Assembly: GCA_963743635.1 (NCBI GenBank)
Contig: CAVUQO010000002.1
Span: 256,001 to 320,000 of the forward strand
Reading direction: 5' to 3'
Origin: Candidatus Babeliales bacterium
GTDB lineage: Bacteria > Babelota > Babeliae > Babelales > Vermiphilaceae
DNA: 64,000 nt
Part shown: piece by piece, positions 16,193 through 52,162 of the stretch
How positions within the stretch are numbered: position 1 is the stretch's first letter
How the letters are laid out: every line of letters begins with the position of its first letter
The notes under the pieces: generated by a model
What the model was told of the DNA's origin: nothing
Databases searched by the model: none
The model's input: only the letters and a program-made list of their open reading frames with translations
Position numbers and translations under genes: made by a program

Positions 16193-16289
16193 TGAATATA
16201 CTCCTGGTATGACCTTACTATGAGATGACGATATAATCTAGTATACTGTGGGGGGTTAAAAAGTGAAAATGATCATTGGAGATTGCACT

Positions 16290-16757
<468 letters not shown>

Positions 16758-16914: not shown

Positions 16915-16943
16915 TTGAAATAATATTAAAGTTCTGTTATAAT
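16915..16943 (+). promoter_or_regulatory. Strong sigma70 promoter of the RBR gene
   Basis: TTGAAA-17 nt-TATAAT with extended -10 TG; palindrome 16869-16895 upstream. Confidence 0.75.
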
Positions 16944-17005
16944 GGTATCTAGGAAGAGAAAAAAGTGATTTTTACTCTTATTATTAACCAAAAAAGGGAG
17001 ATATC

Positions 17006-18301
17006 ATGAAATTTATAACACAATTAGTATTAGTATCAATGGTCCTTACTGGCCAATCGATATCCGCTATGAGCGCAAAAGCACTGGCGGCTTATAGAGA
17101 GCGTGAAATGGCAGGAAGAACAGAGCAAGCCTCTGCAGCTTCAAGCAGCTCATCATCGTCCTCATCAGCGAGCAGTCAATCATCAGAAGGGGAAGCGCGT
17201 AGACCTAAAGGAAAACGAGCTTTAACGCGTCAAGAATTGACACAGATGGAACAACAAGAAAAAGCAGCCATAGAGGCACTAAAATTGGCAGAAAAAGCAG
17301 CGTATGAAGCAGAGGATAAAGCAAGAGAAGAAGCAAAAAAACTCGAAGCATTAGCTGCAGAATTGGCACAAGAAGAGTGGAATTTGGAAAGGCAAGCTGC
17401 AGAGAAACTTGCAAAGCAAGATGAAGAATTAGCGAAACAATTGCAAAAACAAGCAAGTATTGAAGCAAAAGAAGAAGAATTGAATACTCTTAAACAGCAG
17501 CAGCAGATTGCAGAAAAAGATGCGCTGTTAGCGAAGCAATTGGCAGAGCAGGTAGAGGCAGAAGCGCAAGAGCTTAAGCAGCGAATTGCCGAAGATGAAG
17601 AACTAGCGAGAAAATTAGCTGAAGAAAGTGGCCCTTCTGGTCAGTCGAGTGCGAGTAGTTCTTCACAAGCGGCCGAGCTCCAGCAGTGCGGCATTTGTAT
17701 GGAAGACGTTGAGCCGCAGAATATGGTAAATCTTGCATGTCAGCATGCCTATTGCCGTGGATGTTTGACTCAGCTTGTTGAAACCGGTCTTAAGGAAAAA
17801 AATATTGAAGGTATTAAGTGCCCAACGTCTGAATGTAATGCTCCAATGACCCGGGCAGATATTTTTGATATTACGCAAAATCCTGCAAAAGTTGAGGAAT
17901 ATAATGCTATCGCTACCGAGACAGCCCTACCTAAGCTGCAAGGTATCAGGCAGTGTCCTACGGCGAACTGTCCATACCAATTTTTAAATGAAGCAGATGA
18001 GACTCAGGAAACGCGGTGTCCTATGTGCACAAAGCGCTATTGCGCAAACTGCTTAAAAGAGCACAGTGCTCGCATGTCGTGCGAACAAGCGGCAGCTGAC
18101 GCGGCAATGACCTCAGATGATCGGGAGCGGGCAACGGAAGAATGGAAAAAAACACACACAAAGCCATGTCCGAAATGTAACGTTTCAATTGAGAAAGATG
18201 CAGGATGTAATCATATGAGATGCATAACTCCTAGCTGCAGCCACCAGTTTTGTTGGGTGTGTAAACAGCCATGGAACGCAGACCATTACCGCTGTCAGTG
18301 A
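17006..18301 (+). CDS. Secreted RBR (RING1-IBR-RING2) E3 ubiquitin ligase-like protein with coiled coil and MIU-like motifs
   Basis: Signal peptide; RING1 CGIC..CQHAYCRGC..CPTSEC; IBR CPTANC..CPMC..CANC..H..C; RING2 CPKC..KDAGCNHMRC..CSHQFCWVC. Confidence 0.9.
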   Translation: MKFITQLVLVSMVLTGQSISAMSAKALAAYREREMAGRTEQASAASSSSSSSSSASSQSSEGEARRPKGKRALTRQELTQMEQQEKAAIEALKLAEKAAYEAEDKAREEAKKLEALAAELAQEEWNLERQAAEKLAKQDEELAKQLQKQASIEAKEEELNTLKQQQQIAEKDALLAKQLAEQVEAEAQELKQRIAEDEELARKLAEESGPSGQSSASSSSQAAELQQCGICMEDVEPQNMVNLACQHAYCRGCLTQLVETGLKEKNIEGIKCPTSECNAPMTRADIFDITQNPAKVEEYNAIATETALPKLQGIRQCPTANCPYQFLNEADETQETRCPMCTKRYCANCLKEHSARMSCEQAAADAAMTSDDRERATEEWKKTHTKPCPKCNVSIEKDAGCNHMRCITPSCSHQFCWVCKQPWNADHYRCQ

Positions 18302-18328
18302 CCGTTATAATTATAGGTATAAATCTGT

Positions 18329-18361
18329 GCCCCCTTGTTTCTGACTAGAAAATAAGGGGGC
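18329..18361 (+). terminator. Hairpin/terminator after the RBR gene
   Basis: GCCCCCTTGTTTCT-loop-AGAAAATAAGGGGGC. Confidence 0.65.
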
Positions 18362-18482
18362 TACTATTTCTAGATGGGCAGCAAAAATCCTAAAAAAGTG
18401 TATACTGATAAGGATTTTGATAAATACCTATGCCTGGCCTGATACCTAAAAAGCCATGGCTTTCAGTGATGTGGAATGATTT

Positions 18483-19228
18483 ATGAAAAAAATAATACAA
18501 AAACCAGCATTGGTGACCTTAAATACTTATCTTGCTCATGCGGGCGTTTGTTCTCGTCGAAAAGCGGCTGAATTGGTTGAATCGGGCGTCGTGCGCGTCA
18601 ACCAGCAGGTTGTGGCTGATCCCGGCTATCGGGTAAAACCAGATGATATCGTGGAAGTCTCGGGAAGAAACATTACTCCTGAAGATCACGTCTATGTTTT
18701 GCTTAATAAGCCAAAAGATTATGTAACGACCGTTTCAGATGAGCGTGGCCGTAAAACAGTCATGGACTTAGTTCGCGGTGCTGGGCACGTTCGGCTGTAT
18801 CCCATTGGGCGCCTTGATCGGATTACAACCGGATTATTGCTCATGACCAATGATGGTGCATTTGCAGAAAAATTGGCCCATCCTCGCTATGAAGTAGAAA
18901 AAGTATACACGGTGACGCTTGATAAGAGCGTGAGCTCTGGTGATATACAGACGATTATGCGTGGAATTCAGCTTGAAGATGGATTGATTAAGGTGGATGA
19001 TATAGCGTATACGGGGACCACCAAAAGAGAGGTTACCTTAGCGCTTCACAGCGGAAAATATCGGGTTGTGCGTAGAATATTTGAACAACTTGGGTATGAT
19101 GTGCGTAAGCTTGACCGTATAGAATATGCAGGGTTAACCAAAAAAGAGTACCGGTTGGTATGTGGCGTTACCTGACGGATGGCGAAGTTGCCGCACTAAA
19201 AAGAATGAAAAATGAGGAAAAGGAATAA
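18483..19228 (+). CDS. rRNA pseudouridine synthase, RsuA/RluB family (3' frameshift)
   Basis: S4 domain (GVCSRRKA), LNKPKDYV, IGRLDRITTGLLLMTNDG; C-terminus continues in another frame (WRYLTDGEV). Confidence 0.9.
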
Positions 19229-19230
19229 TC

Positions 19231-20017
19231 ATGGATTATGGAACGATTGTTCGTATTGGTATTTTGGTCGCAATGGGCGTAGTTGGCATTTCTGCCATGA
19301 AACGCGTCTTAACCAGAGCTCTCGAGCGATGGTACAATGATCCAGTTCGCATACCGATTATGGTACGATTGTTGACCTATTTAGCGGTATTTATTGTCGG
19401 TGCCTCAATTATGCAAGAATTGGGCATTAATATTACTGCATTGTTGGGTGCTGCAGGGATCTTGGGTGTGGCCATTGGTTTTGCCGCACAAGCGAGCGTC
19501 AGTAATATCATCAGTGGTATATTTATCCTGATCGAACGTCCGTTCTCAATAGATGATGAAATTCAAATTGATGAGTTCAGTGGAAAAGTGGTAGACATCA
19601 ATCTATTTTCTATCGGATTGCTGACTCCCGATCATCGTTCTATTCGTATTCCGCACGAAAAATTATTGAAAAACGTTATCATCAATAAAACTCATCGCGC
19701 AAAGCGCCGTTACGAAGTCACTATTGCATTAGCATCGTATGAAGATCTTGATCGTGCACGTGCAGTGTTTGTGGATGCTATGCGTAATGAATCGTATTGC
19801 CTAATCTCACCTGAGCCAATTGTGTGGGTGGATACAATCAATGGCGATGTAACGCAATTGATCGTTGGTGTTTGGGTTGATAGCAGCAAATTGGTTGAAG
19901 CAAAACACCGTCTTGTTGGCGCGTTATATCCCGCGTGTAAAAAAGAAAATATACATCTCATCAACCATCTACGATGTCGATACAAGTCACGCAGAAGTAA
20001 TTTCAACAATGATGTGA
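19231..20017 (+). CDS. mscS: Small-conductance mechanosensitive channel (end approximate)
   Basis: LLGAAGILGVAIGFAAQASVSNIISG, ERPFSIDDEI. Confidence 0.85.
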
Positions 20018-20100
20018 GTTTTTGTAGGCAACGTCTGGATCTTATGATACGCTCCTTGCATAAATTATGTAAAAATTATCTATGCGTAGCAGGTATTCGT

Positions 20101-21433
20101 ATGTCAAATGCTCATCTCGTCATTGAACAATCGTGGGGTCTTTCAGGAGAATTGGAATTGGTTGGCGCAAAAAATGCGGTGCTGGTCATTATGGCAGCAT
20201 TAATTTTGACGCGCGGCAAGTCAGTTCTAAAAAATGTTCCGGCATCATCTGATGTCGATCAAATGATTTTAGTGCTCGAAGAATTGGGCGCTCAGGTTAC
20301 GTTCTGTCGCAAAGAACATCGTCTTGAAGTTGATACAACGTTCCATCTCAAAATACAGCGTCAGTCCTGAAATCATGCGCAAGATGCGGGCATCCATTTT
20401 AGTAATGGGGCCGTTACTTGCACGCTTTGGTAAAGCAGATATTGCATTGCCGGGCGGTTGCGTCATTGGCGCGCGTCCCGTTGATTATCACATCAAAAAT
20501 TTTGAACAAATGGGCGTCATGGTTGAAATGCATGGTGACTACTTAAAAGCAGTAGCGCCAGTTTTGCAGGCAACCACGTTAGTGCTCGATTATCCAAGCG
20601 TTGGTGCAACTGAAAATATTATGATGGCTGCAGCGCTGACGCCGGGCGTAACGCGCATTATTAATGCCGCATTAGAGCCGGAAGTGTTGGATTGCATTGA
20701 AGTGCTGCGTAAAATGGGTGCAGATATTGCGATTTTACCGCCAGCAACGCTTGAAATTAGAGGCGTGAGCTCGCTAAAACCCATTGAGCATGCGATTGTC
20801 TATGATCGTTTAGAAGCGGGCGCATTATTGCTAGCTGCGGCGATTACGGGCGGAAATATTTCATTGCCACAAGCGCCAGCATACACGATGGATATTGTGA
20901 TTAAGAAATTACGAGATATGGGGCATATTCTGAACGTGGGTGCAGATGGGGTCGGAATTACCTTACACGCAACGCAAACGCCGCGCGCCGTATCATTCAA
21001 GACTGGTCCATATCCGAGCTTTCCGACCGATTTACAAGCGCCTATGATGGCAGCGCAATGTATTGCCAATGGCACGAGTATGGTCGAAGAGACGGTTTTT
21101 GAAAATCGTTTGGTGCATGTGCGTGAATTGCAAAAAATGGGTGCGCAGATTACCGTTGAGCACAATAAAGCAACGGTAATGGGTGTTGAGGAATTGTATG
21201 GAACGCAGATCATTGCAACCGATATTCGCTCTTCATGCGCATTAGTTCTTGCGGGATTAGTGGCAAAAGGAGCAACGCATATGACCGGCATTCATCATTG
21301 GCAACGAGGTTATGAAATGCTTGAGCGTAAACTTGCTCATTTGGGTGCGCGTATTGCGCTTAAAGAATTCGAGCCAGCTCGCGTTGAGTTTGACGAAACT
21401 CTTGATAAGAAATGGCACGAAGTACAATCGTAG
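20101..21433 (+). CDS. murA: UDP-N-acetylglucosamine 1-carboxyvinyltransferase (one frameshift near 20345)
   Basis: GAKNAVL, MRASILVMGPLLARFG, LPGGCVIGARP, SVGATEN, FPTDLQA. Confidence 0.95.
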
Positions 21434-27962: not shown

Positions 27963-36524
<8,562 letters not shown>

Positions 36525-47653: not shown

Positions 47654-48898
47654 ATGAATAAAAGAACTCAATTATTAAAGGTTATGATGTTCAATCTCCT
47701 TGTATGGACTCAAATGCAGGGGATGGACGCAGGCTCTTCTTTTACTGAACCTGAACAATATATAAAAAATTTTAATGAACGATATTTTCCTCGTAGGACT
47801 GAAGAGGAAAAAGCGCTAGAAGCGCTCGCAGATGGAATAGACAATCCATATCGTTTTGGACCTATTGCCATTGATCGAATAACTGCACAAGATCTTGCTG
47901 ATATAGAAGGTTTAAAAGAAGGTGAATCTCTCTTTCATATGGAATCCCGTATTAGAACGTATGTAGAAAAGCGAACGCTCATGGCAAAAGCGGGGCGACA
48001 ACGATGGTATGATAAGTTCATGGATTGGGATTGCAACGAACCAGACCGTGATGAGCATCTTATAAATTGTATTTTTGGAGCGGCTATTCGTAGAGAGGAT
48101 GTTCCTCTTGCAAAAGATTTACTTAAGCATGGCACAAATCCCAATAAAGACATACAGCTGCGCTGTGGTTATCGAGGGCAGCCTATTTTTGAAGTTATGA
48201 CAGTACCAATGCTTGATTTATTGGTTTCTCATGGAGTCGATCTTGATAAGCCTAATAGATATTATGGACCTGGATATTATCCACCACCTGGATATGAAGT
48301 ATCTCTCGTGCATCATGTAGTTGCATATAGGTCACCAGAAATTTTGGAGCGATTGCTTCAATGTCCAGGAGTTAACGTCAATGCCCGAAGGAACCCAGAA
48401 GCTAACTTCACTGGTCCAACGAGAAACGATCTTCCAGCTTCATACAGGCTTCCACCTTCATACAGGAGTGATATTAAGGACACGCCATTGCATGTATGGG
48501 CTAAGCTGTCCCCTTTTAAGTCGAAGTTTCTGGGTATACAAAAGCAGTTAATGAGTTTAATACGCGCCGGTGCCGATGTGACCTTAAAAAATAGCGAAAA
48601 TTACACAGCGCTTGATATTCTTCGCTCAAAGCTTGCAGATCCTTATGAATACGAGATGCAAATAGTAGTCCAACTCGTCGCCCAACTCGCTGCTTTAATG
48701 CCTCCACAGCCTCAAGCAGATATTGCAAGAAAGGCAGTAGTCGCCACAGAGGAATCAGCCTGCGTTATTTGCTTGGAAAATTTTCAACAATCTGATGATC
48801 GCACTACATTACCATGCGCACATGTATTTCATACGGCGTGTGTAAATCCCTGGATTGCATCAAACAGCACATGCCCTACTTGTAGAACTGCGATATAG
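47654..48898 (+). CDS. Secreted ankyrin-repeat + RING-H2 protein (E3 ligase-like), copy 1
   Basis: Signal peptide; DTPLHVWA, GADVTLKN..TALD ankyrin motifs; CVIC..LPCAHVFHTAC..W..CPTCR. Confidence 0.88.
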   Translation: MNKRTQLLKVMMFNLLVWTQMQGMDAGSSFTEPEQYIKNFNERYFPRRTEEEKALEALADGIDNPYRFGPIAIDRITAQDLADIEGLKEGESLFHMESRIRTYVEKRTLMAKAGRQRWYDKFMDWDCNEPDRDEHLINCIFGAAIRREDVPLAKDLLKHGTNPNKDIQLRCGYRGQPIFEVMTVPMLDLLVSHGVDLDKPNRYYGPGYYPPPGYEVSLVHHVVAYRSPEILERLLQCPGVNVNARRNPEANFTGPTRNDLPASYRLPPSYRSDIKDTPLHVWAKLSPFKSKFLGIQKQLMSLIRAGADVTLKNSENYTALDILRSKLADPYEYEMQIVVQLVAQLAALMPPQPQADIARKAVVATEESACVICLENFQQSDDRTTLPCAHVFHTACVNPWIASNSTCPTCRTAI

Positions 48899-49107: not shown

Positions 49108-50199
49108 ATGAATAAAAGAACTCAGTTATTAAAGGTTATGATGTTCAATCTCCTTGTATGGACTCAAATGCAGGGGATGGACACTGATTCTTCTTTTACT
49201 GAAGAGGAAAAAGCGCTCCAAGCGCTCGAAGATGGAACAGGCAATCCATATCGTTTTGGACCTATTGCCATTGATCGAATAACCGCACAAGATCTTGCTG
49301 ATATAGAAGATTTAAAAGAACGTTATTCTCGCTATCTTATGACATTCGATATTAGAACGTATGTAGAAAAGCGAACGCTCATGGCAAAAGCGGGGCGACA
49401 ACGATGGTATGATAAGTTCATGGATTGGGATTGCAACGAACCAGACCGTTATAAGCCTCTTATAGATAAGATTTTTGAAGCGGCTCTTAGTAGAGAGGAT
49501 CTTCCTCTTGCAAAAGATTTATTTAAGCATGGCGCGTATCCCAATGAACGCATAGCGCGGGGGCCTTTTTTGGGAGTTAGAACAGTACCGATGCTTGATT
49601 TATTGATTTCTCATGGAGTCGATATTGATAAGACTGGATGTAATCTACCTATCGTGCATAATGCAGTTGCATATGACTCACCAAAATTTTTGGAGCGATT
49701 GCTTCAATGCCCAGGAGTTAACGTCAATGCCCGAAGTAACCCTGGTCGAATGAAAGACGTTTTTGAATGGAGGCAAGATTTTGAGGACACGCCATTGCAT
49801 GTATGGGCTAAGCTGTGCCCTTGGGAGTCGCGGTTTCCGGGTATACAAAAGAAGTTAATGATTTTAATACGCGCCGGTGCCGATGTGACCTTAAAAAATA
49901 GCAAGAATCACACAGCGCTTGATATTCTTCGCTCACATATTGCAGATCGTACATATTGTGTAATGCTGCGCGAACTCGCCGACCAACTCGCTGCTTTAAT
50001 GCCTCCACAGCCTCAAGCAGATATTGCAAGAAAGGCAGTAGTCGCCACAGAGGAATCAGCCTGCGTTATTTGCTTGGAAAATTTTCAACAATCTGATGAT
50101 CGCACTACATTACCATGCGCACATGTATTTCATACGGCGTGTGTAAATCCCTGGATTGCATCAAACCGCACATGCCCTACTTGTAGAACTGCGATATAG
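49108..50199 (+). CDS. Secreted ankyrin-repeat + RING-H2 protein, copy 2
   Basis: Near-identical N- and C-termini to copy 1; divergent middle. Confidence 0.88.
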   Translation: MNKRTQLLKVMMFNLLVWTQMQGMDTDSSFTEEEKALQALEDGTGNPYRFGPIAIDRITAQDLADIEDLKERYSRYLMTFDIRTYVEKRTLMAKAGRQRWYDKFMDWDCNEPDRYKPLIDKIFEAALSREDLPLAKDLFKHGAYPNERIARGPFLGVRTVPMLDLLISHGVDIDKTGCNLPIVHNAVAYDSPKFLERLLQCPGVNVNARSNPGRMKDVFEWRQDFEDTPLHVWAKLCPWESRFPGIQKKLMILIRAGADVTLKNSKNHTALDILRSHIADRTYCVMLRELADQLAALMPPQPQADIARKAVVATEESACVICLENFQQSDDRTTLPCAHVFHTACVNPWIASNRTCPTCRTAI

Positions 50200-50405
50200 A
50201 TCTACATCGTCGGCGCGGAATCATCCACAAGTCTAATCTCAATGTGGTTGATCGATGGATATTGTTCTAATCTTCCATAGCAAAATACTTTATCTTTTAG
50301 TGGCATTAATATCTGTACACATGTCTTTTTTGCATTCAAAGCATTTTGTATTTGGGGATTATGGTATGCTAATAGACGTATTTTTTGAAACGAAAGAGAT
50401 TATAT

Positions 50406-51260
50406 ATGAATAAAAAAATGCAGTGGATAGCGGTGATGTGCATTGGGTTTTTGACGGGGTGCGTAAGCGCTATGAATGATCGTGGCATGCACTGGGCATG
50501 TTTTAACGATGATCATGATCAAGCTCAGGAATTACTAAACGAAAGTAAAAATAGTGTCCATAATTTTACCTTGAACAATGTAGAAATCAGATCTATACCC
50601 GTTCTCTTTTTTGCCAAATCAATTAAGATTGCGGATTTATTAATGCGATATGGTGCGGATCCATATCAGGTAGCTACTTATTATCCCCATGGTGGTGAAA
50701 CTATTATTCATAATTCAATGAGCGCAGATTATTCGATTCCACTTTTGAAACATTATATTGATACTGTACGAATTAATATCAATACAACCACAGCAAATAA
50801 AGATACCCCCTTGCATTATTGGGCACGTTCATCACTTTTTACGTCATCACATTATTTAGGTGTGCAGCCGTATTCAGGGTATTTATCTATCGCACAAGAA
50901 AAATTAAAGATACTCATCGCAGCGGGGGCAAATACAATGCTCAAAAATGCTACGGGGGATACAGCTTTGGATGTTCTCCGACGAAAAAAACTTTCATATA
51001 TTGACAGGCTTCCTGTTACAAAGCAAGAGCGTGAATTGCGAAATGAGGCTTTTGACATACTTGCTCTGCTGCTTAATGCGGCAACAAGAAAACAAATTGC
51101 AAGCATGCCAGAACAGCCTTTTTGTGTTATTTGTCAGGGCGAGCTTGAAGAATCTGATGATCGCACTAGATTACCTTGTACACATGTATTTCATATGACG
51201 TGTATAAATAGCTGGATTACATTAAACGGAATTTGTCCTACTTGTAGAAGAGAAGTATGA
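50406..51260 (+). CDS. Secreted ankyrin-repeat + RING-H2 protein, copy 3 (divergent)
   Basis: Signal peptide (CVSA-MN); KDTPLHYWA, AGANTMLKN..TALD; CVIC..LPCTHVFHMTC..W..CPTCR. Confidence 0.85.
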   Translation: MNKKMQWIAVMCIGFLTGCVSAMNDRGMHWACFNDDHDQAQELLNESKNSVHNFTLNNVEIRSIPVLFFAKSIKIADLLMRYGADPYQVATYYPHGGETIIHNSMSADYSIPLLKHYIDTVRININTTTANKDTPLHYWARSSLFTSSHYLGVQPYSGYLSIAQEKLKILIAAGANTMLKNATGDTALDVLRRKKLSYIDRLPVTKQERELRNEAFDILALLLNAATRKQIASMPEQPFCVICQGELEESDDRTRLPCTHVFHMTCINSWITLNGICPTCRREV

Positions 51261-52162
51261 AAATGAATTACATGAAAAACGCTTATTTTAATCTTATCGC
51301 GCTTGTGGCGCTTTGCATGAGTGAGTCGCTGTATGCAATGGATCAGTTGAGAGCTTTTGAAAATTATTTTCAAAATGGTGATCTGTGGGTCGATGAAAAT
51401 GAAGATGTAATGTCTGATCATATCGTCAAAATACAGAATCATCTTGATGTGCAGCGGCATCTTGGAATGCGGACATATCCCCCGATAAAGACACCGCCCC
51501 CTTTAAATGATGCAACGCAATTAAAATCAGCATTGATGCCACAAAATGATATTGATCGACTTTATGGAGAATACGAGCAGCATGTAAATAAATTTGTTGG
51601 CGCTGTTGTATGTCAGCAAGAGGTTTTAAAGCGTTTGAGGCAAGAAGCATCAAAGTCAGAAAAGCAGACTGGCTTCTTTATTGAATTGCATCGAATATTC
51701 GAAGGTGTTGAGGCATTGATACTGGCTGGTTCAAAATGGCTTGCCGTAACCCGAGAATCGGGCGTAGAGCATTATCTCATTTTAGAGAAATGTCGGCCTT
51801 CTATGGAACAGCAAAAGTACATCAAGTATCGCGTTGATACTCCCGCAATACGAGCAGAATTTTGGAAGTATGCACTGCAACAAGCGCTCTTAAATAATTG
51901 GCAGGCGCATTACAACGATGAGCATTATTGTTTTTGGAAGCATGCAAGCCCACTATCAATGCTCATCATACGGCACCAACTCTATAAAGGGTTTGAAGGT
52001 TTAGACTATAAAAAGACCACTGAATATACTGGTCCTCCGCTTTGTCGCCTAAAATTTAAGGACGGAAAGTTTTGTAATTGGCCGTATGAGAAATTAGAAA
52101 AGTTGCTGGCATTAGCGGATGAAGAGGCGAATGAGCTTAATACAGAACTGCTCTGGAAGTAA
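51257..52162 (+). CDS. Hypothetical secreted protein, translationally coupled to ANK-RING copy 3
   Basis: ATGA overlap; signal peptide (SLYA-MDQ). Confidence 0.65.
   Translation: MKMNYMKNAYFNLIALVALCMSESLYAMDQLRAFENYFQNGDLWVDENEDVMSDHIVKIQNHLDVQRHLGMRTYPPIKTPPPLNDATQLKSALMPQNDIDRLYGEYEQHVNKFVGAVVCQQEVLKRLRQEASKSEKQTGFFIELHRIFEGVEALILAGSKWLAVTRESGVEHYLILEKCRPSMEQQKYIKYRVDTPAIRAEFWKYALQQALLNNWQAHYNDEHYCFWKHASPLSMLIIRHQLYKGFEGLDYKKTTEYTGPPLCRLKFKDGKFCNWPYEKLEKLLALADEEANELNTELLWK

What the first reader, a model, noticed from the sequence alone, without database searches (positions are those of the whole stretch)
17006..18301. Bacterial, Sec-exported, complete RBR E3 ubiquitin ligase
Seen: signal peptide, Ser-rich linkers, coiled coil, then intact RING1, IBR and RING2 with the catalytic motif KDAG-C-N-H-MRC and an Ariadne-like linker (EEWKKTHTKPCPKC). 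It has its own strong promoter (TTGAAA-17-TGnTATAAT), SD and terminator, and no frameshifts. Known: RBRs (Parkin, HOIP, ARIH1, RNF14/RNF144) are eukaryotic RING/HECT hybrid ligases; characterised bacterial E3 effectors are mainly NEL, HECT-like, U-box/RING and SidE types. The protein ends right after RING2, with no Ariadne autoinhibitory domain. Inference: a constitutively active host-directed RBR effector acquired from a protist or giant virus.
Basis: partly seen in the sequence, partly recalled or inferred. Interest (0 to 1): 0.88.

Follow-up and report, generated by a model that had tools for sequence, protein, structure and literature searches.

The report
Bacterial secreted RBR ubiquitin ligase family
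A protist-parasitic bacterium of the Dependentiae group carries an intact copy of a type of ubiquitin-tagging enzyme (RBR) otherwise known from eukaryotes and giant viruses, fitted with a bacterial export signal, and it is one member of a large family of such genes for which I found no description.

Summary
ORF 17006-18301 (+) encodes 431 aa: a signal-peptide-like N-terminus, two Ser-rich disordered linkers, one 133-residue helix, and a complete RING1-IBR-RING2 module. All zinc ligands and the catalytic Cys401/His403 are present, and the protein ends one residue after the last ligand. Best solved relatives are ARIH2 and ARIH1 (phmmer E 6e-31; Foldseek E 3e-13). It is a real bacterial gene. Short-read contigs from two studies reproduce the whole ORF without a difference.

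It is not an isolated recent capture. An IBR domain occurs in 46 of 261 genomes of its phylum (Dependentiae by record titles), often in tandem arrays. In a 71-row tree the bacterial-type sequences form one group (100/100) apart from eukaryotic Ariadne and giant-virus RBRs.

Relatives also carry hydrophobic N-termini (112 of 147, against 3 of 79 eukaryotic Ariadnes), and none of the 20 best hits has the Ariadne autoinhibitory domain. The genome has Sec, signal peptidase and secretins. I found no E2, ubiquitin or DsbA/B.

Most likely this is a Sec-exported effector that uses host E2~ubiquitin. Activity, constitutive activity and delivery into the host are untested. My eight literature searches found no paper describing bacterial RBR ligases.

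The parts
16915..16943 (+). Sigma-70-like promoter: TTGAAA, 17-nt spacer, TG-extended TATAAT
   Evidence: 11 of 12 matches, TG before the second hexamer; sequence read. This is a consensus match only. There is no transcript evidence.
16996..17000 (+). Shine-Dalgarno GGGAG, 5 nt upstream of the ATG
   Evidence: sequence read directly
17006..18301 (+). CDS of the 431-aa RBR protein (stop codon included)
   Evidence: Identical in short-read contigs of two studies. A near-identical protein, P0001 (one difference, G37R), sits on another public contig.
17006..17068 (+). Signal-peptide-like N-terminus, residues 1-21 (MK, h-region F3-G16, QSISA, then M22)
   Evidence: Hydrophobic 11-mer with mean KD 2.31 starting at residue 4. 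The same feature is in 112 of 147 family members against 3 of 79 eukaryotic Ariadnes. An [AGSTC]-M follows the h-region in 61 of 112. Cleavage is not tested.
17132..17185 (+). Ser-rich disordered linker 1 (residues 43-60)
   Evidence: 35% Ser over residues 31-70; pLDDT below 50 at 46-69
17228..17626 (+). Long E/A/L/Q/K-rich helix, residues 75-207. It holds three D-E-E-L-A-[KR]-x-L-type repeats at residues 139, 172 and 197.
   Evidence: AlphaFold2 gives a single helix at pLDDT about 95. Heptad signal is weak. There is a weak Pfam CCDC50_N match, E 0.001, below the cut-off.
17630..17671 (+). Ser-rich disordered linker 2 (residues 209-222)
   Evidence: pLDDT below 50 at 208-218
17681..17836 (+). 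RING1 (residues 226-277), C3HC4; the last ligand pair is C-x4-C
   Evidence: Pfam zf-RING_UBOX / zf-C3HC4. Ligands are 89-100% conserved in 192 bacterial-type domains. Aligned to ARIH2 RING1.
17894..18082 (+). IBR domain (residues 297-359), C6HC
   Evidence: Pfam PF01485, E 4.2e-13, profile positions 1-65 of 65; found again by the own-genome search
18149..18295 (+). RING2 / catalytic domain (residues 382-430)
   Evidence: Pfam IBR_2 E 2.1e-13 and IBR_1 E 8.5e-13; aligned to ARIH2 RING2; pLDDT about 90
18206..18214 (+). Codons of the predicted catalytic Cys401, Asn402 and His403
   Evidence: Cys is conserved in 192 of 192 bacterial-type and 83 of 83 eukaryotic domains. His at +2 is in 141 of 192 and 83 of 83. 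It aligns with the GCNHM stretch of ARIH2. That this Cys is the active site of ARIH1/2 is recalled knowledge.
18329..18361 (+). GC-rich hairpin followed by a U-rich tail: probable intrinsic terminator
   Evidence: -25.6 kcal/mol for the 84-nt stretch, z -2.2. Not called by the strict scan. Short-read contigs break here.

Best explanation
The gene encodes a Sec-exported, host-directed ubiquitin ligase of the RING-between-RING (RBR) class. It is one member of a large family that has radiated within the Dependentiae, obligate parasites of protists.

Proposed mechanism:
1. The N-terminal signal takes the unfolded, reduced protein through SecYEG. Signal peptidase I cuts around A21|M22.
2. The protein leaves the cell through the secretin-dependent pathway or in outer-membrane vesicles and reaches host cytosol.
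3. There it binds zinc. RING1 docks a host E2~ubiquitin.
4. Ubiquitin is passed to Cys401 of RING2 as a thioester. With help from His403 it is then passed on to a host substrate.
5. The 133-residue helix and the Ser-rich linkers act as a spacer and probably as a targeting or ubiquitin-binding part.
6. Because the Ariadne domain that masks the active site in ARIH1/2 is missing, activity should not depend on neddylated cullins.

Shown: gene, fold, ligands, family, and the export machinery in the genome.
Inferred: export, cleavage, delivery to host cytosol, catalysis, lack of autoinhibition, and the substrate.
For: - Complete RBR by Pfam, by sequence to solved ARIH2 (E 6.1e-31 over residues 226-430) and ARIH1 (about 1e-26), and by fold (AlphaFold2 mean pLDDT 86.9; Foldseek top hit ARIH2 7od1_A at E 3.4e-13, followed by ARIH1, HOIL-1, parkin, HOIP and RNF216).
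- The catalytic Cys is kept in 192 of 192 bacterial-type domains, and most zinc ligands in 94-100%. This argues for selection on catalysis.
- The gene is bacterial. It lies between tdk/radA and rluB-mscS-murA, 9 kb from a bacterial rRNA operon. GC is 0.44, like its surroundings. The ORF is identical in short-read contigs of two studies.
- Homologues lie in single-contig 1.2-1.7 Mb genomes of the same family (G009, G010, G017). One of these records is titled Candidatus Dependentiae bacterium.
- N-terminal hydrophobic signal in 112 of 147 family members, against 3 of 79 eukaryotic Ariadnes.
- The own genome has SecY, two signal peptidase I genes and two secretins. No UQ_con E2 and no ubiquitin were found, nor DsbA or DsbB.
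- Six further RING-H2 genes score over the cut-off in the genome, three of them in this window with the same kind of N-terminus.
- Published genome analyses of the Dependentiae Babela and Chromulinavorax infer signal-peptide-bearing ankyrin and ubiquitin-system proteins to be secreted into the host (PMC4378268 and PMC6561590; passages read).
Against: - No experiment and no transcript data support any step.
- No dedicated signal-peptide predictor was available. The -3 residue of the A21|M22 site is Ile, which is not ideal.
- How a Sec substrate would cross the outer membrane and any host vacuole membrane is unknown for this phylum.
- A domain with 25 cysteines passing through the periplasm is unusual. 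The missing DsbA/B comes from an 85%-complete, indel-ridden assembly.
- For the E2 and ubiquitin searches the control genomes could not ring, so absence is weakly supported.
- His at +2 is replaced in 51 of 192 family members, so not all members need be active.
- Short-read contigs stop at the hairpin (18369-18387) and at the GAT repeat (16683-16745). They therefore do not themselves bridge the gene to its neighbours.
Confidence: 0.62

Rival explanations
1. The N-terminal hydrophobic stretch is an uncleaved anchor. The protein stays tethered to the bacterial envelope. The Ser-rich linker and the roughly 20-nm helix act as a stalk that holds the RBR head away from the membrane, so that it works at the bacterium-host interface rather than as a free effector.
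For: The architecture of anchor, disordered linker, one 133-residue helix and a globular head resembles surface-displayed stalk proteins. The helix has weak heptad character. The predicted cleavage site is not ideal.
Against: The h-region is only about 14 residues (F3-G16), short for a membrane span. An inner-membrane anchor would leave the head in the periplasm, where there is no E2 or ubiquitin. Secretins indicate an outer membrane. Relatives place the RBR right after the signal or put quite different regions before or after it, so a stalk is not a family feature. The [AGS]-M motif conserved at the end of the h-region looks like a processing site.
Confidence: 0.12
2. It is not a working ligase. 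It is a decoy that binds host E2~ubiquitin, ubiquitin or cullin-type partners and blocks host ubiquitination, for example of the parasite's surface.
For: Ubiquitin-system mimics that act by binding are known among pathogens (recalled knowledge). The helix carries three D-E-E-L-A-x-x-L repeats that look like ubiquitin-interacting helices (the resemblance is recalled). There is a weak CCDC50_N match. His at +2 is lost in 51 of 192 relatives.
Against: This copy keeps Cys401, His403 and every zinc ligand. The catalytic Cys is invariant in 192 of 192 relatives, which a pure binder would not need.
Confidence: 0.1
3. One reading: a recent capture by this bacterium of a protist or giant-virus RBR gene.
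For: The RBR core is closest to the eukaryotic Ariadne subfamily. Giant-virus MAGs carry RBRs at 27-33% identity. On the 107-row data set a tree holding bacteria and giant viruses together was not rejected and had a higher likelihood than the quick free tree (p-AU 0.67).
Against: The nearest sequences are bacterial-type (36-46% identity). IBR is in 46 of 261 genomes and 8 of 21 families of the phylum. Bacterial-type rows form one side of a branch at 100/100, with giant viruses inside the eukaryotic side, in the careful 71-row tree. GC content is like the surroundings.
Confidence: 0.05
4. Eukaryotic contamination or a chimeric join in the assembly.
For: The assembly has many indel errors. Short-read contigs break on both sides of the gene.
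Against: It has a bacterial-type promoter, SD and terminator, no introns and a signal peptide. Contig depth over the gene and its neighbours is similar (about 7-9 in X1 and X2). Homologues are embedded in complete single-contig bacterial chromosomes. The window sits inside a 594,567-bp contig.
Confidence: 0.01

Closest known systems
ARIH2 / ARIH1 (HHARI), the eukaryotic Ariadne RBR ligases (PDB 7od1, 4kbl, 5udh)
   Same: The same RING1-IBR-RING2 order, spacing and ligands, the same GCNHM active-site stretch, and the same W...TK.CPKC linker. phmmer E 6e-31 over the whole module. Foldseek E 3e-13 with 31% identity.
   Different: No UBA-like N-terminal domain and no C-terminal Ariadne domain. It has a bacterial signal peptide, Ser-rich linkers and a long helix instead. 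It belongs to a separate bacterial group in the tree. Regulation by neddylated cullins is therefore not expected (inference).
ANKIB1 (ankyrin repeats + Ariadne-type RBR) of animals
   Same: Several relatives of this gene in Dependentiae genomes combine ankyrin repeats with the RBR (L006, L007, L012; Pfam columns of P0137, P0040, P0052).
   Different: The window's copy has no ankyrin repeats. The bacterial ones lack the Ariadne domain and carry signal peptides. In the first, 107-row tree ANKIB1 sequences fall on the eukaryotic side.
RBR genes of giant-virus MAGs (IMG/VR GVMAG contigs, loci L047-L050)
   Same: A complete RBR outside cellular eukaryotes, in parasites of protists; 27-33% identity.
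   Different: No signal peptide in the two N-termini I printed, which are acidic like eukaryotic Ariadnes. They sit inside the eukaryotic side of the careful tree.
Characterised bacterial E3 effectors: NEL (IpaH/SspH), HECT-like (SopA, NleL), U-box/RING-like (LubX, NleG, AvrPtoB), F-box (AnkB), SidE family. All recalled from memory. Also the RING ligase of Simkania negevensis (PMC12591485, passages read).
   Same: A bacterial protein that would use host E1, E2 and ubiquitin to tag host proteins. Like HECT-like and NEL effectors, it would work through a Cys-ubiquitin thioester.
   Different: A different fold and catalytic module (RBR). Export is by a Sec-type signal, not type III or IV secretion. 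My searches found no paper describing a bacterial RBR ligase.
Ubiquitin-system proteins reported for Babela massiliensis: one F-box, one RING finger, three secreted USPs, Ulp1-like proteins (PMC4378268, passages read)
   Same: The same phylum and the same logic: eukaryote-like ubiquitin-system domains behind signal peptides (called 'somewhat atypical' for the Ulp1-like proteins), inferred to be secreted into the amoeba.
   Different: That paper does not mention IBR or RBR (0 occurrences of 'IBR'). The RBR family is a further, catalytically distinct class.

Membership tests
RBR (RING-between-RING) E3 ligases | RING1 with C3HC4 zinc ligands | tested here: met
   C228, C231, C245, H247, C250, C253, C272, C277. 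Pfam RING models E 7e-7 to 1e-5. Aligned to ARIH2 RING1.
RBR (RING-between-RING) E3 ligases | IBR domain (C6HC) between the two RINGs | tested here: met
   PF01485 E 4.2e-13, residues 297-359, profile positions 1-65 of 65, above the cut-off
RBR (RING-between-RING) E3 ligases | RING2 with eight zinc ligands plus a free catalytic cysteine | tested here: met
   PF22605 and PF22191 at E about 1e-13. C401 lies in GCNHM and is aligned to the same stretch of ARIH2. It is invariant in 192 of 192 bacterial-type and 83 of 83 eukaryotic domains.
RBR (RING-between-RING) E3 ligases | Overall fold of the tripartite module | tested here: met
   AlphaFold2 pLDDT above 90 over most of 226-430. All of the first 50 listed Foldseek PDB hits are RBR proteins.
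RBR (RING-between-RING) E3 ligases | E2-dependent ubiquitin thioester on RING2 and transfer to a substrate | not testable with these tools
   Needs biochemistry.
Ariadne subfamily (ARIH1/ARIH2/ANKIB1/CUL9) | C-terminal Ariadne autoinhibitory domain (PF19422) | tested here: not met
   The protein ends at residue 431, one residue after the last RING2 ligand, with no PF19422 match. None of the 20 best non-self hits has the domain.
Ariadne subfamily (ARIH1/ARIH2/ANKIB1/CUL9) | UBA-like domain N-terminal of RING1 (PF21235) | tested here: not met
   No match. The N-terminal part is signal, Ser-rich linkers and a long helix.
Ariadne subfamily (ARIH1/ARIH2/ANKIB1/CUL9) | RBR core closest to Ariadne proteins among RBR subfamilies | tested here: met
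   PDB ranking: ARIH2 6e-31, ARIH1 1e-26, CUL9 8e-13, parkin 2e-11, RNF216 2e-7, HOIP 1e-6. The named eukaryotic hits of the profile search are Ariadne/ARI/ANKIB1. In the tree it lies outside the eukaryotic Ariadne group.
Sec-dependent secreted proteins (type I signal peptide) | Basic n-region, 7-15-residue h-region, polar c-region with small residues before the cut | tested here: inconclusive
   MK / FITQLVLVSMVLTG / QSISA|M fits on a hydrophobicity heuristic. No SignalP-type tool was available. The -3 residue is Ile.
Sec-dependent secreted proteins (type I signal peptide) | Sec translocon and signal peptidase I present in the genome | tested here: met
   SecY (in three frames, probably assembly indels), two Peptidase_S26 genes and two secretins

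The most novel reading that the evidence does not exclude
Dependentiae carry a phylum-wide, single-origin radiation of minimal Ariadne-core RBR ligases, each led by an export signal and stripped of the autoinhibitory domain. This would be a further mechanistic class of bacterial E3 effector, a true RING/HECT hybrid beside the NEL, HECT-like, RING/U-box, F-box and SidE types.

The family would be old enough to stand outside all sampled eukaryotic and giant-virus Ariadne sequences. Its members would be routed by a lineage-specific N-terminal signal that ends in [A/G/S]-M-[E/D/N/Q]. The same signal marks well over a hundred candidate effectors in this one genome.
Probability: 0.45. Interest if true: 0.78.

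Novelty: new variant of a known kind. Interest (0 to 1): 0.62.

Why it matters
Bacteria that live inside eukaryotic cells are known to hijack ubiquitination with several enzyme types. RBR ligases (the parkin, HOIP and Ariadne class) are treated as eukaryotic in the reviews I saw.

A large natural collection of small RBR modules without the usual autoinhibitory domain, attached to varied targeting regions, would offer three things:
- a new effector class for an almost unstudied phylum of protist parasites;
- simple, probably unregulated RBR cores for mechanistic and structural work;
- a case for dating gene exchange between early eukaryotes, giant viruses and intracellular bacteria.

The shared N-terminal motif could give a direct way to list the secreted effectors of Dependentiae from sequence alone.

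Tried and rejected
- Homodimer test of the helix (two copies of residues 70-210, complex prediction): no answer.
- RNA evidence: no RNA holder was listed among the public runs, so nothing can be said on expression.
- Short-read contigs did not bridge the gene to its neighbours. They break at the GAT repeat and at the terminator hairpin.
- The word-indexed protein search with the single sequence found only two relatives. The exhaustive HMMER search and the profile search were needed.
- UIM/MIU idea: a strict D-E-x-L-A-x-x-L-Q pattern is in only 2 of 149 bacterial-type family members and 0 of 81 eukaryotic ones. It is therefore not a family feature. Pfam gave only a sub-threshold CCDC50_N match.
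- The strict terminator scan found no '+' strand terminator after the stop codon. Folding shows a hairpin.
- The quick 107-row tree placed eukaryotes plus giant viruses on one side with only 89.5 SH-aLRT. The AU test showed that the quick search had missed a better tree, so I rebuilt with long branches removed.
- Literature searches that returned nothing on bacterial RBR ligases. The preprint 10.64898/2026.04.11.717937 uses 'RBR' for rubrerythrin, as does PMC1522038 (listing only).
- Earlier notes of this scan hold nothing on this protein. The notes on inteins in giant-virus RBRs concern other DNA.
Full report
**What is there**

The ORF at 17006-18301 on the + strand is real and intact, and it begins at the first start codon after an upstream stop. 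It encodes 431 residues.

Pfam finds a RING finger at 226-277, an IBR domain at 297-359 (E 4.2e-13, full profile) and the RING2-type IBR_2/IBR_1 models at 382-426 (E about 1e-13). All eight ligands of RING1, eight of the IBR and eight of RING2 are present. The extra cysteine Cys401 sits in KDAG-C-N-H-MRC with His403 two residues on.

Against all solved structures the best matches are:
- ARIH2, E 6.1e-31, query 226-430 on chain 137-340;
- ARIH1, about 1e-26;
- CUL9, parkin, RNF216, HOIL-1 and HOIP, further down; 48 distinct sequences in all at E up to 0.01.

An AlphaFold2 model (69-row alignment, mean pLDDT 86.9, pTM 0.43) has the RBR part above pLDDT 90. Foldseek returns ARIH2 first (7od1_A, E 3.4e-13, 197 columns, 31% identity) and only RBR ligases among the first 50 listed hits.

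The protein stops one residue after the last ligand, and there is no Ariadne or UBA-like domain.

**The N-terminal half**

Residues 1-21 read MK, then a 14-residue hydrophobic stretch, then QSISA followed by Met22. This looks like a signal peptide on a simple hydrophobicity measure. I had no dedicated predictor.

Two Ser-rich stretches (43-60 and 209-222) are predicted to be disordered. Between them the model shows one unbroken helix, 75-207, at pLDDT about 95. Its heptad pattern is weak: 26 of 133 residues are core hydrophobics, and a/d occupancy is 3-4 of 8. 'Coiled coil' is therefore not established, and the dimer prediction gave no answer.

The helix holds three D-E-E-L-A-[KR]-x-L-like repeats at residues 139, 172 and 197. 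They recall ubiquitin-interacting helices, but that resemblance is from memory. Pfam gives only a sub-threshold CCDC50_N match, and the strict motif is rare in relatives (2 of 149).

**Expression signals**

The promoter-like site TTGAAA-17-TATAAT with a TG extension scores 11 of 12 at 16915-16943. GGGAG lies 5 nt before the ATG. A GC-rich hairpin with a U-rich tail follows the stop codon, although the strict scan did not call it. These are consensus matches. No RNA data were available.

**Is it really bacterial?**

The window is part of a 594,567-bp contig of a 1.45-Mb, 3-contig genome scored 85% complete. A bacterial rRNA operon lies 9 kb upstream. The neighbours are thymidine kinase, RadA, a pseudouridine synthase, MscS and MurA. 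GC content over the gene (0.44) is like that of its surroundings.

Short-read contigs from public metagenome runs of two studies reproduce the gene exactly. One 1,396-nt contig covers 16987-18382 with no difference or gap. Another covers 17171-18369 likewise. One of these runs may be the source of the assembly.

Those contigs stop at the upstream GAT repeat and at the terminator hairpin, so they do not themselves bridge to the neighbours. Depth is similar over the gene and downstream (about 7-9).

The same runs show one-base indels relative to the window at 19139, 19959 and 20339. The apparent frameshifts in mscS and murA are therefore assembly errors, and probably also those in radA, rpoC and secY.

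**Which organism**

Genome G009, which the tool places in the same family as the window's genome, holds an RBR match at exactly the coordinates of a record titled 'Candidatus Dependentiae bacterium'. Other RBR-bearing records are also titled Candidatus Dependentiae or candidate division TM6.

One record of the same family is titled 'uncultured Pseudomonadota' (G003 = L014). Submitter labels therefore disagree with the genome-based grouping.

**The family**

This genome has a single RBR gene, but relatives have many:
- 11 of 60 related genomes match the RBR domain. There are 11 matches in G010 and 9 in G024, several side by side.
- Across the phylum, the IBR model hits 46 of 261 genomes (45 over the curated cut-off; 32 of 189 high-quality genomes), in 8 of 21 families, and 0 of 14 control genomes.
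- The exhaustive HMMER search of 1.84 billion representatives gave 12,293 proteins at E up to 0.001 and 142 at E up to 1e-30. The best reach 36-46% identity.
- In the profile search, the 20 best non-self hits (E 1.5e-72 to 5.3e-44) have neither the Ariadne nor the UBA_ARI1 domain. Named eukaryotic Ariadne proteins (Anaeramoeba, fungi, plants, insects, ANKIB1) start at E 2.7e-43.
- All ten relatives cut from related genomes begin with a hydrophobic N-terminus. They combine the RBR with quite different parts: ankyrin repeats, Gln-rich tails, coiled regions.
- Among the top 151 representatives, 112 of the 147 that start with Met have such an N-terminus, against 3 of 79 eukaryotic Ariadne-type proteins.
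- The catalytic Cys is kept in 192 of 192 bacterial-type domains. The His at +2 is kept in 141 of 192.
- Weaker homologues (about 28-30% identity) occur in Parendozoicomonas species, an Endozoicomonadaceae MAG and a Myxococcota MAG.

**Phylogeny**

Of the 319 sequences with a hit, 294 had at least 80% model coverage. I thinned these to 219 by identity.

The first tree was a quick search on 107 rows: 30 bacterial and 3 giant-virus loci rows, 37 eukaryotic rows, and 37 unnamed representatives up to P0045. It put the 37 eukaryotic rows, 3 giant-virus rows and the plant-like P0004 on one side, with only 89.5 SH-aLRT. A constrained tree holding bacteria and giant viruses together had a higher likelihood (p-AU 0.67), so that tree was not decisive.

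I then removed 19 long or compositionally odd rows: both Parendozoicomonas, the Myxococcota row, L011, L022, L025, L026, L028, L032, L034, P0004, P0007 and seven eukaryotic rows. I also removed every second unnamed row.

The careful tree of the remaining 71 rows gives:
- the 38 bacterial-type rows as one side of a branch at 100/100, and in 100% of 200 bootstrap trees;
- the three giant-virus rows as a 100/100 group lying inside the eukaryotic side.

The tree is unrooted and holds no other RBR subfamily. Direction and age of the transfer are therefore not shown. What it does show is that this gene was not captured on its own from a sampled protist or giant virus.

**Mechanism**

The genome has SecY, two signal peptidases I and two secretins. 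I found no UQ_con E2 and no ubiquitin (the controls could not ring, so this is weak). I found no DsbA or DsbB although the controls rang.

It also encodes six other RING-H2 proteins over the cut-off. Three of them are in this window (47654-48898, 49108-50199, 50385-51260).

The simplest reading is an exported enzyme that depends on host E1, E2 and ubiquitin:
1. RING1 binds E2~Ub.
2. Cys401 takes ubiquitin as a thioester.
3. His403 helps pass it on to a substrate.

The steps after the gene and fold are inferred from the established RBR mechanism. Published genome analyses of Babela and Chromulinavorax make the same inference for their signal-peptide-bearing ankyrin and ubiquitin-system proteins (PMC4378268 and PMC6561590; passages only).

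**Novelty**

Eight full-text searches found no paper describing a bacterial RBR ligase.
- The 2015 survey of the ubiquitin system reports only F-box, U-box and DUBs in intracellular bacteria (PMC4327156, passages).
- The Babela paper lists an F-box, one RING finger, USPs and Ulp1-like proteins and never mentions IBR.
- A 2026 preprint notes in general terms that Dependentiae, Chlamydiota and viruses sit next to eukaryotes in ubiquitin-system gene trees (10.64898/2026.05.08.723234, passages).

The library lacks most subscription journals, and database domain annotations of these MAG proteins surely exist. I therefore rate this as a new variant of a known kind (eukaryote-like E3 effectors of intracellular bacteria), not as categorically new.

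**Side observation**

The N-terminal signal has a conserved end. In 61 of 112 signal-bearing family members an [AGSTC]-Met follows the hydrophobic stretch (background 4.7%), most often followed by Glu (22 of 61).

In this genome, 1,354 raw ATG-ORFs of at least 120 aa include 684 with a hydrophobic N-terminus. Of these 684, 127 carry [AGSTC]-M-[EDNQ] at that place, against 1.25% of background 13-residue windows. The window's RING-H2 genes are among them.

This looks like a lineage-specific processing or sorting motif for secreted proteins. A second start codon is the alternative. For the RBR gene itself I saw no SD-like sequence before Met22.

Noticed in passing
whole genome G000; in the window e.g. 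the N-termini of ORFs 47654-48898, 49108-50199 and 51257-52162, and residues 1-22 of the RBR protein (17006-17071): A conserved ending of N-terminal signals: a hydrophobic stretch, then [AGSTC]-M-[EDNQ]. It is in 127 of 684 ORFs with a hydrophobic N-terminus (background 1.25%), and in 61 of 112 signal-bearing RBR family members from many genomes (background 4.7%). It may be a lineage-specific cleavage or sorting motif marking secreted effectors. One search listed no paper that describes it.
   Followed up: partly
window 47654-48898, 49108-50199, 50385-51260 (+): Three neighbouring genes with a C-terminal RING-H2 finger (zf-RING_2, E 3e-14 to 3e-12), one also with ankyrin repeats. The genome has 10 zf-RING_2 matches, 7 over the cut-off including the RBR's own RING1. 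This bacterium therefore carries several kinds of E3-like genes.
   Followed up: partly
window 19139, 19959, 20339; also radA 14265-15411, rpoC 32543-34995, mscS/murA 19231-21433; secY at G000:C2:374519-375510: Essential genes are split over frames. Short-read contigs of three runs show one-base indels relative to the window at the three named places. The apparent pseudogenes are probably assembly errors, not gene decay.
   Followed up: partly
window 16263-16757 (+), repeat 16683-16745: The ORF just upstream encodes 164 aa with a hydrophobic N-terminus and a tail of about 20 Asp coded by a GAT repeat. It has no Pfam match. Short-read contigs break at the repeat.
   Followed up: no
G010:C1:584417-600183; G024:C2:76337-82633 and 568017-570070: Tandem arrays of RBR paralogues in related genomes: 11 and 9 matches per genome. 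This is typical of fast-evolving effector families.
   Followed up: no
L014 (CAZQNW010000002.1) and L027 (JBDHVY010000001.1): Two records that the genome tool puts in one family (G003 and G009) are titled 'uncultured Pseudomonadota bacterium' and 'Candidatus Dependentiae bacterium' respectively. The first label looks wrong.
   Followed up: partly
L025:1239-2060 (+): A 274-aa Dependentiae RBR protein has, right after its signal peptide, the stretch DSDLRRALEFSLLE. This looks like a canonical ubiquitin-interacting motif (the motif is recalled, not tested).
   Followed up: no
protein P0162: An Anaeramoeba ignava Ariadne-type protein of 1,444 aa is named 'intein-containing E3 ubiquitin-protein ligase ari5-related' by its source. 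Earlier notes of this scan describe inteins at the catalytic Cys of giant-virus RBRs.
   Followed up: no
window 9022-12378 (-): A 1,118-aa ORF with no Pfam match at E up to 1e-5.
   Followed up: no
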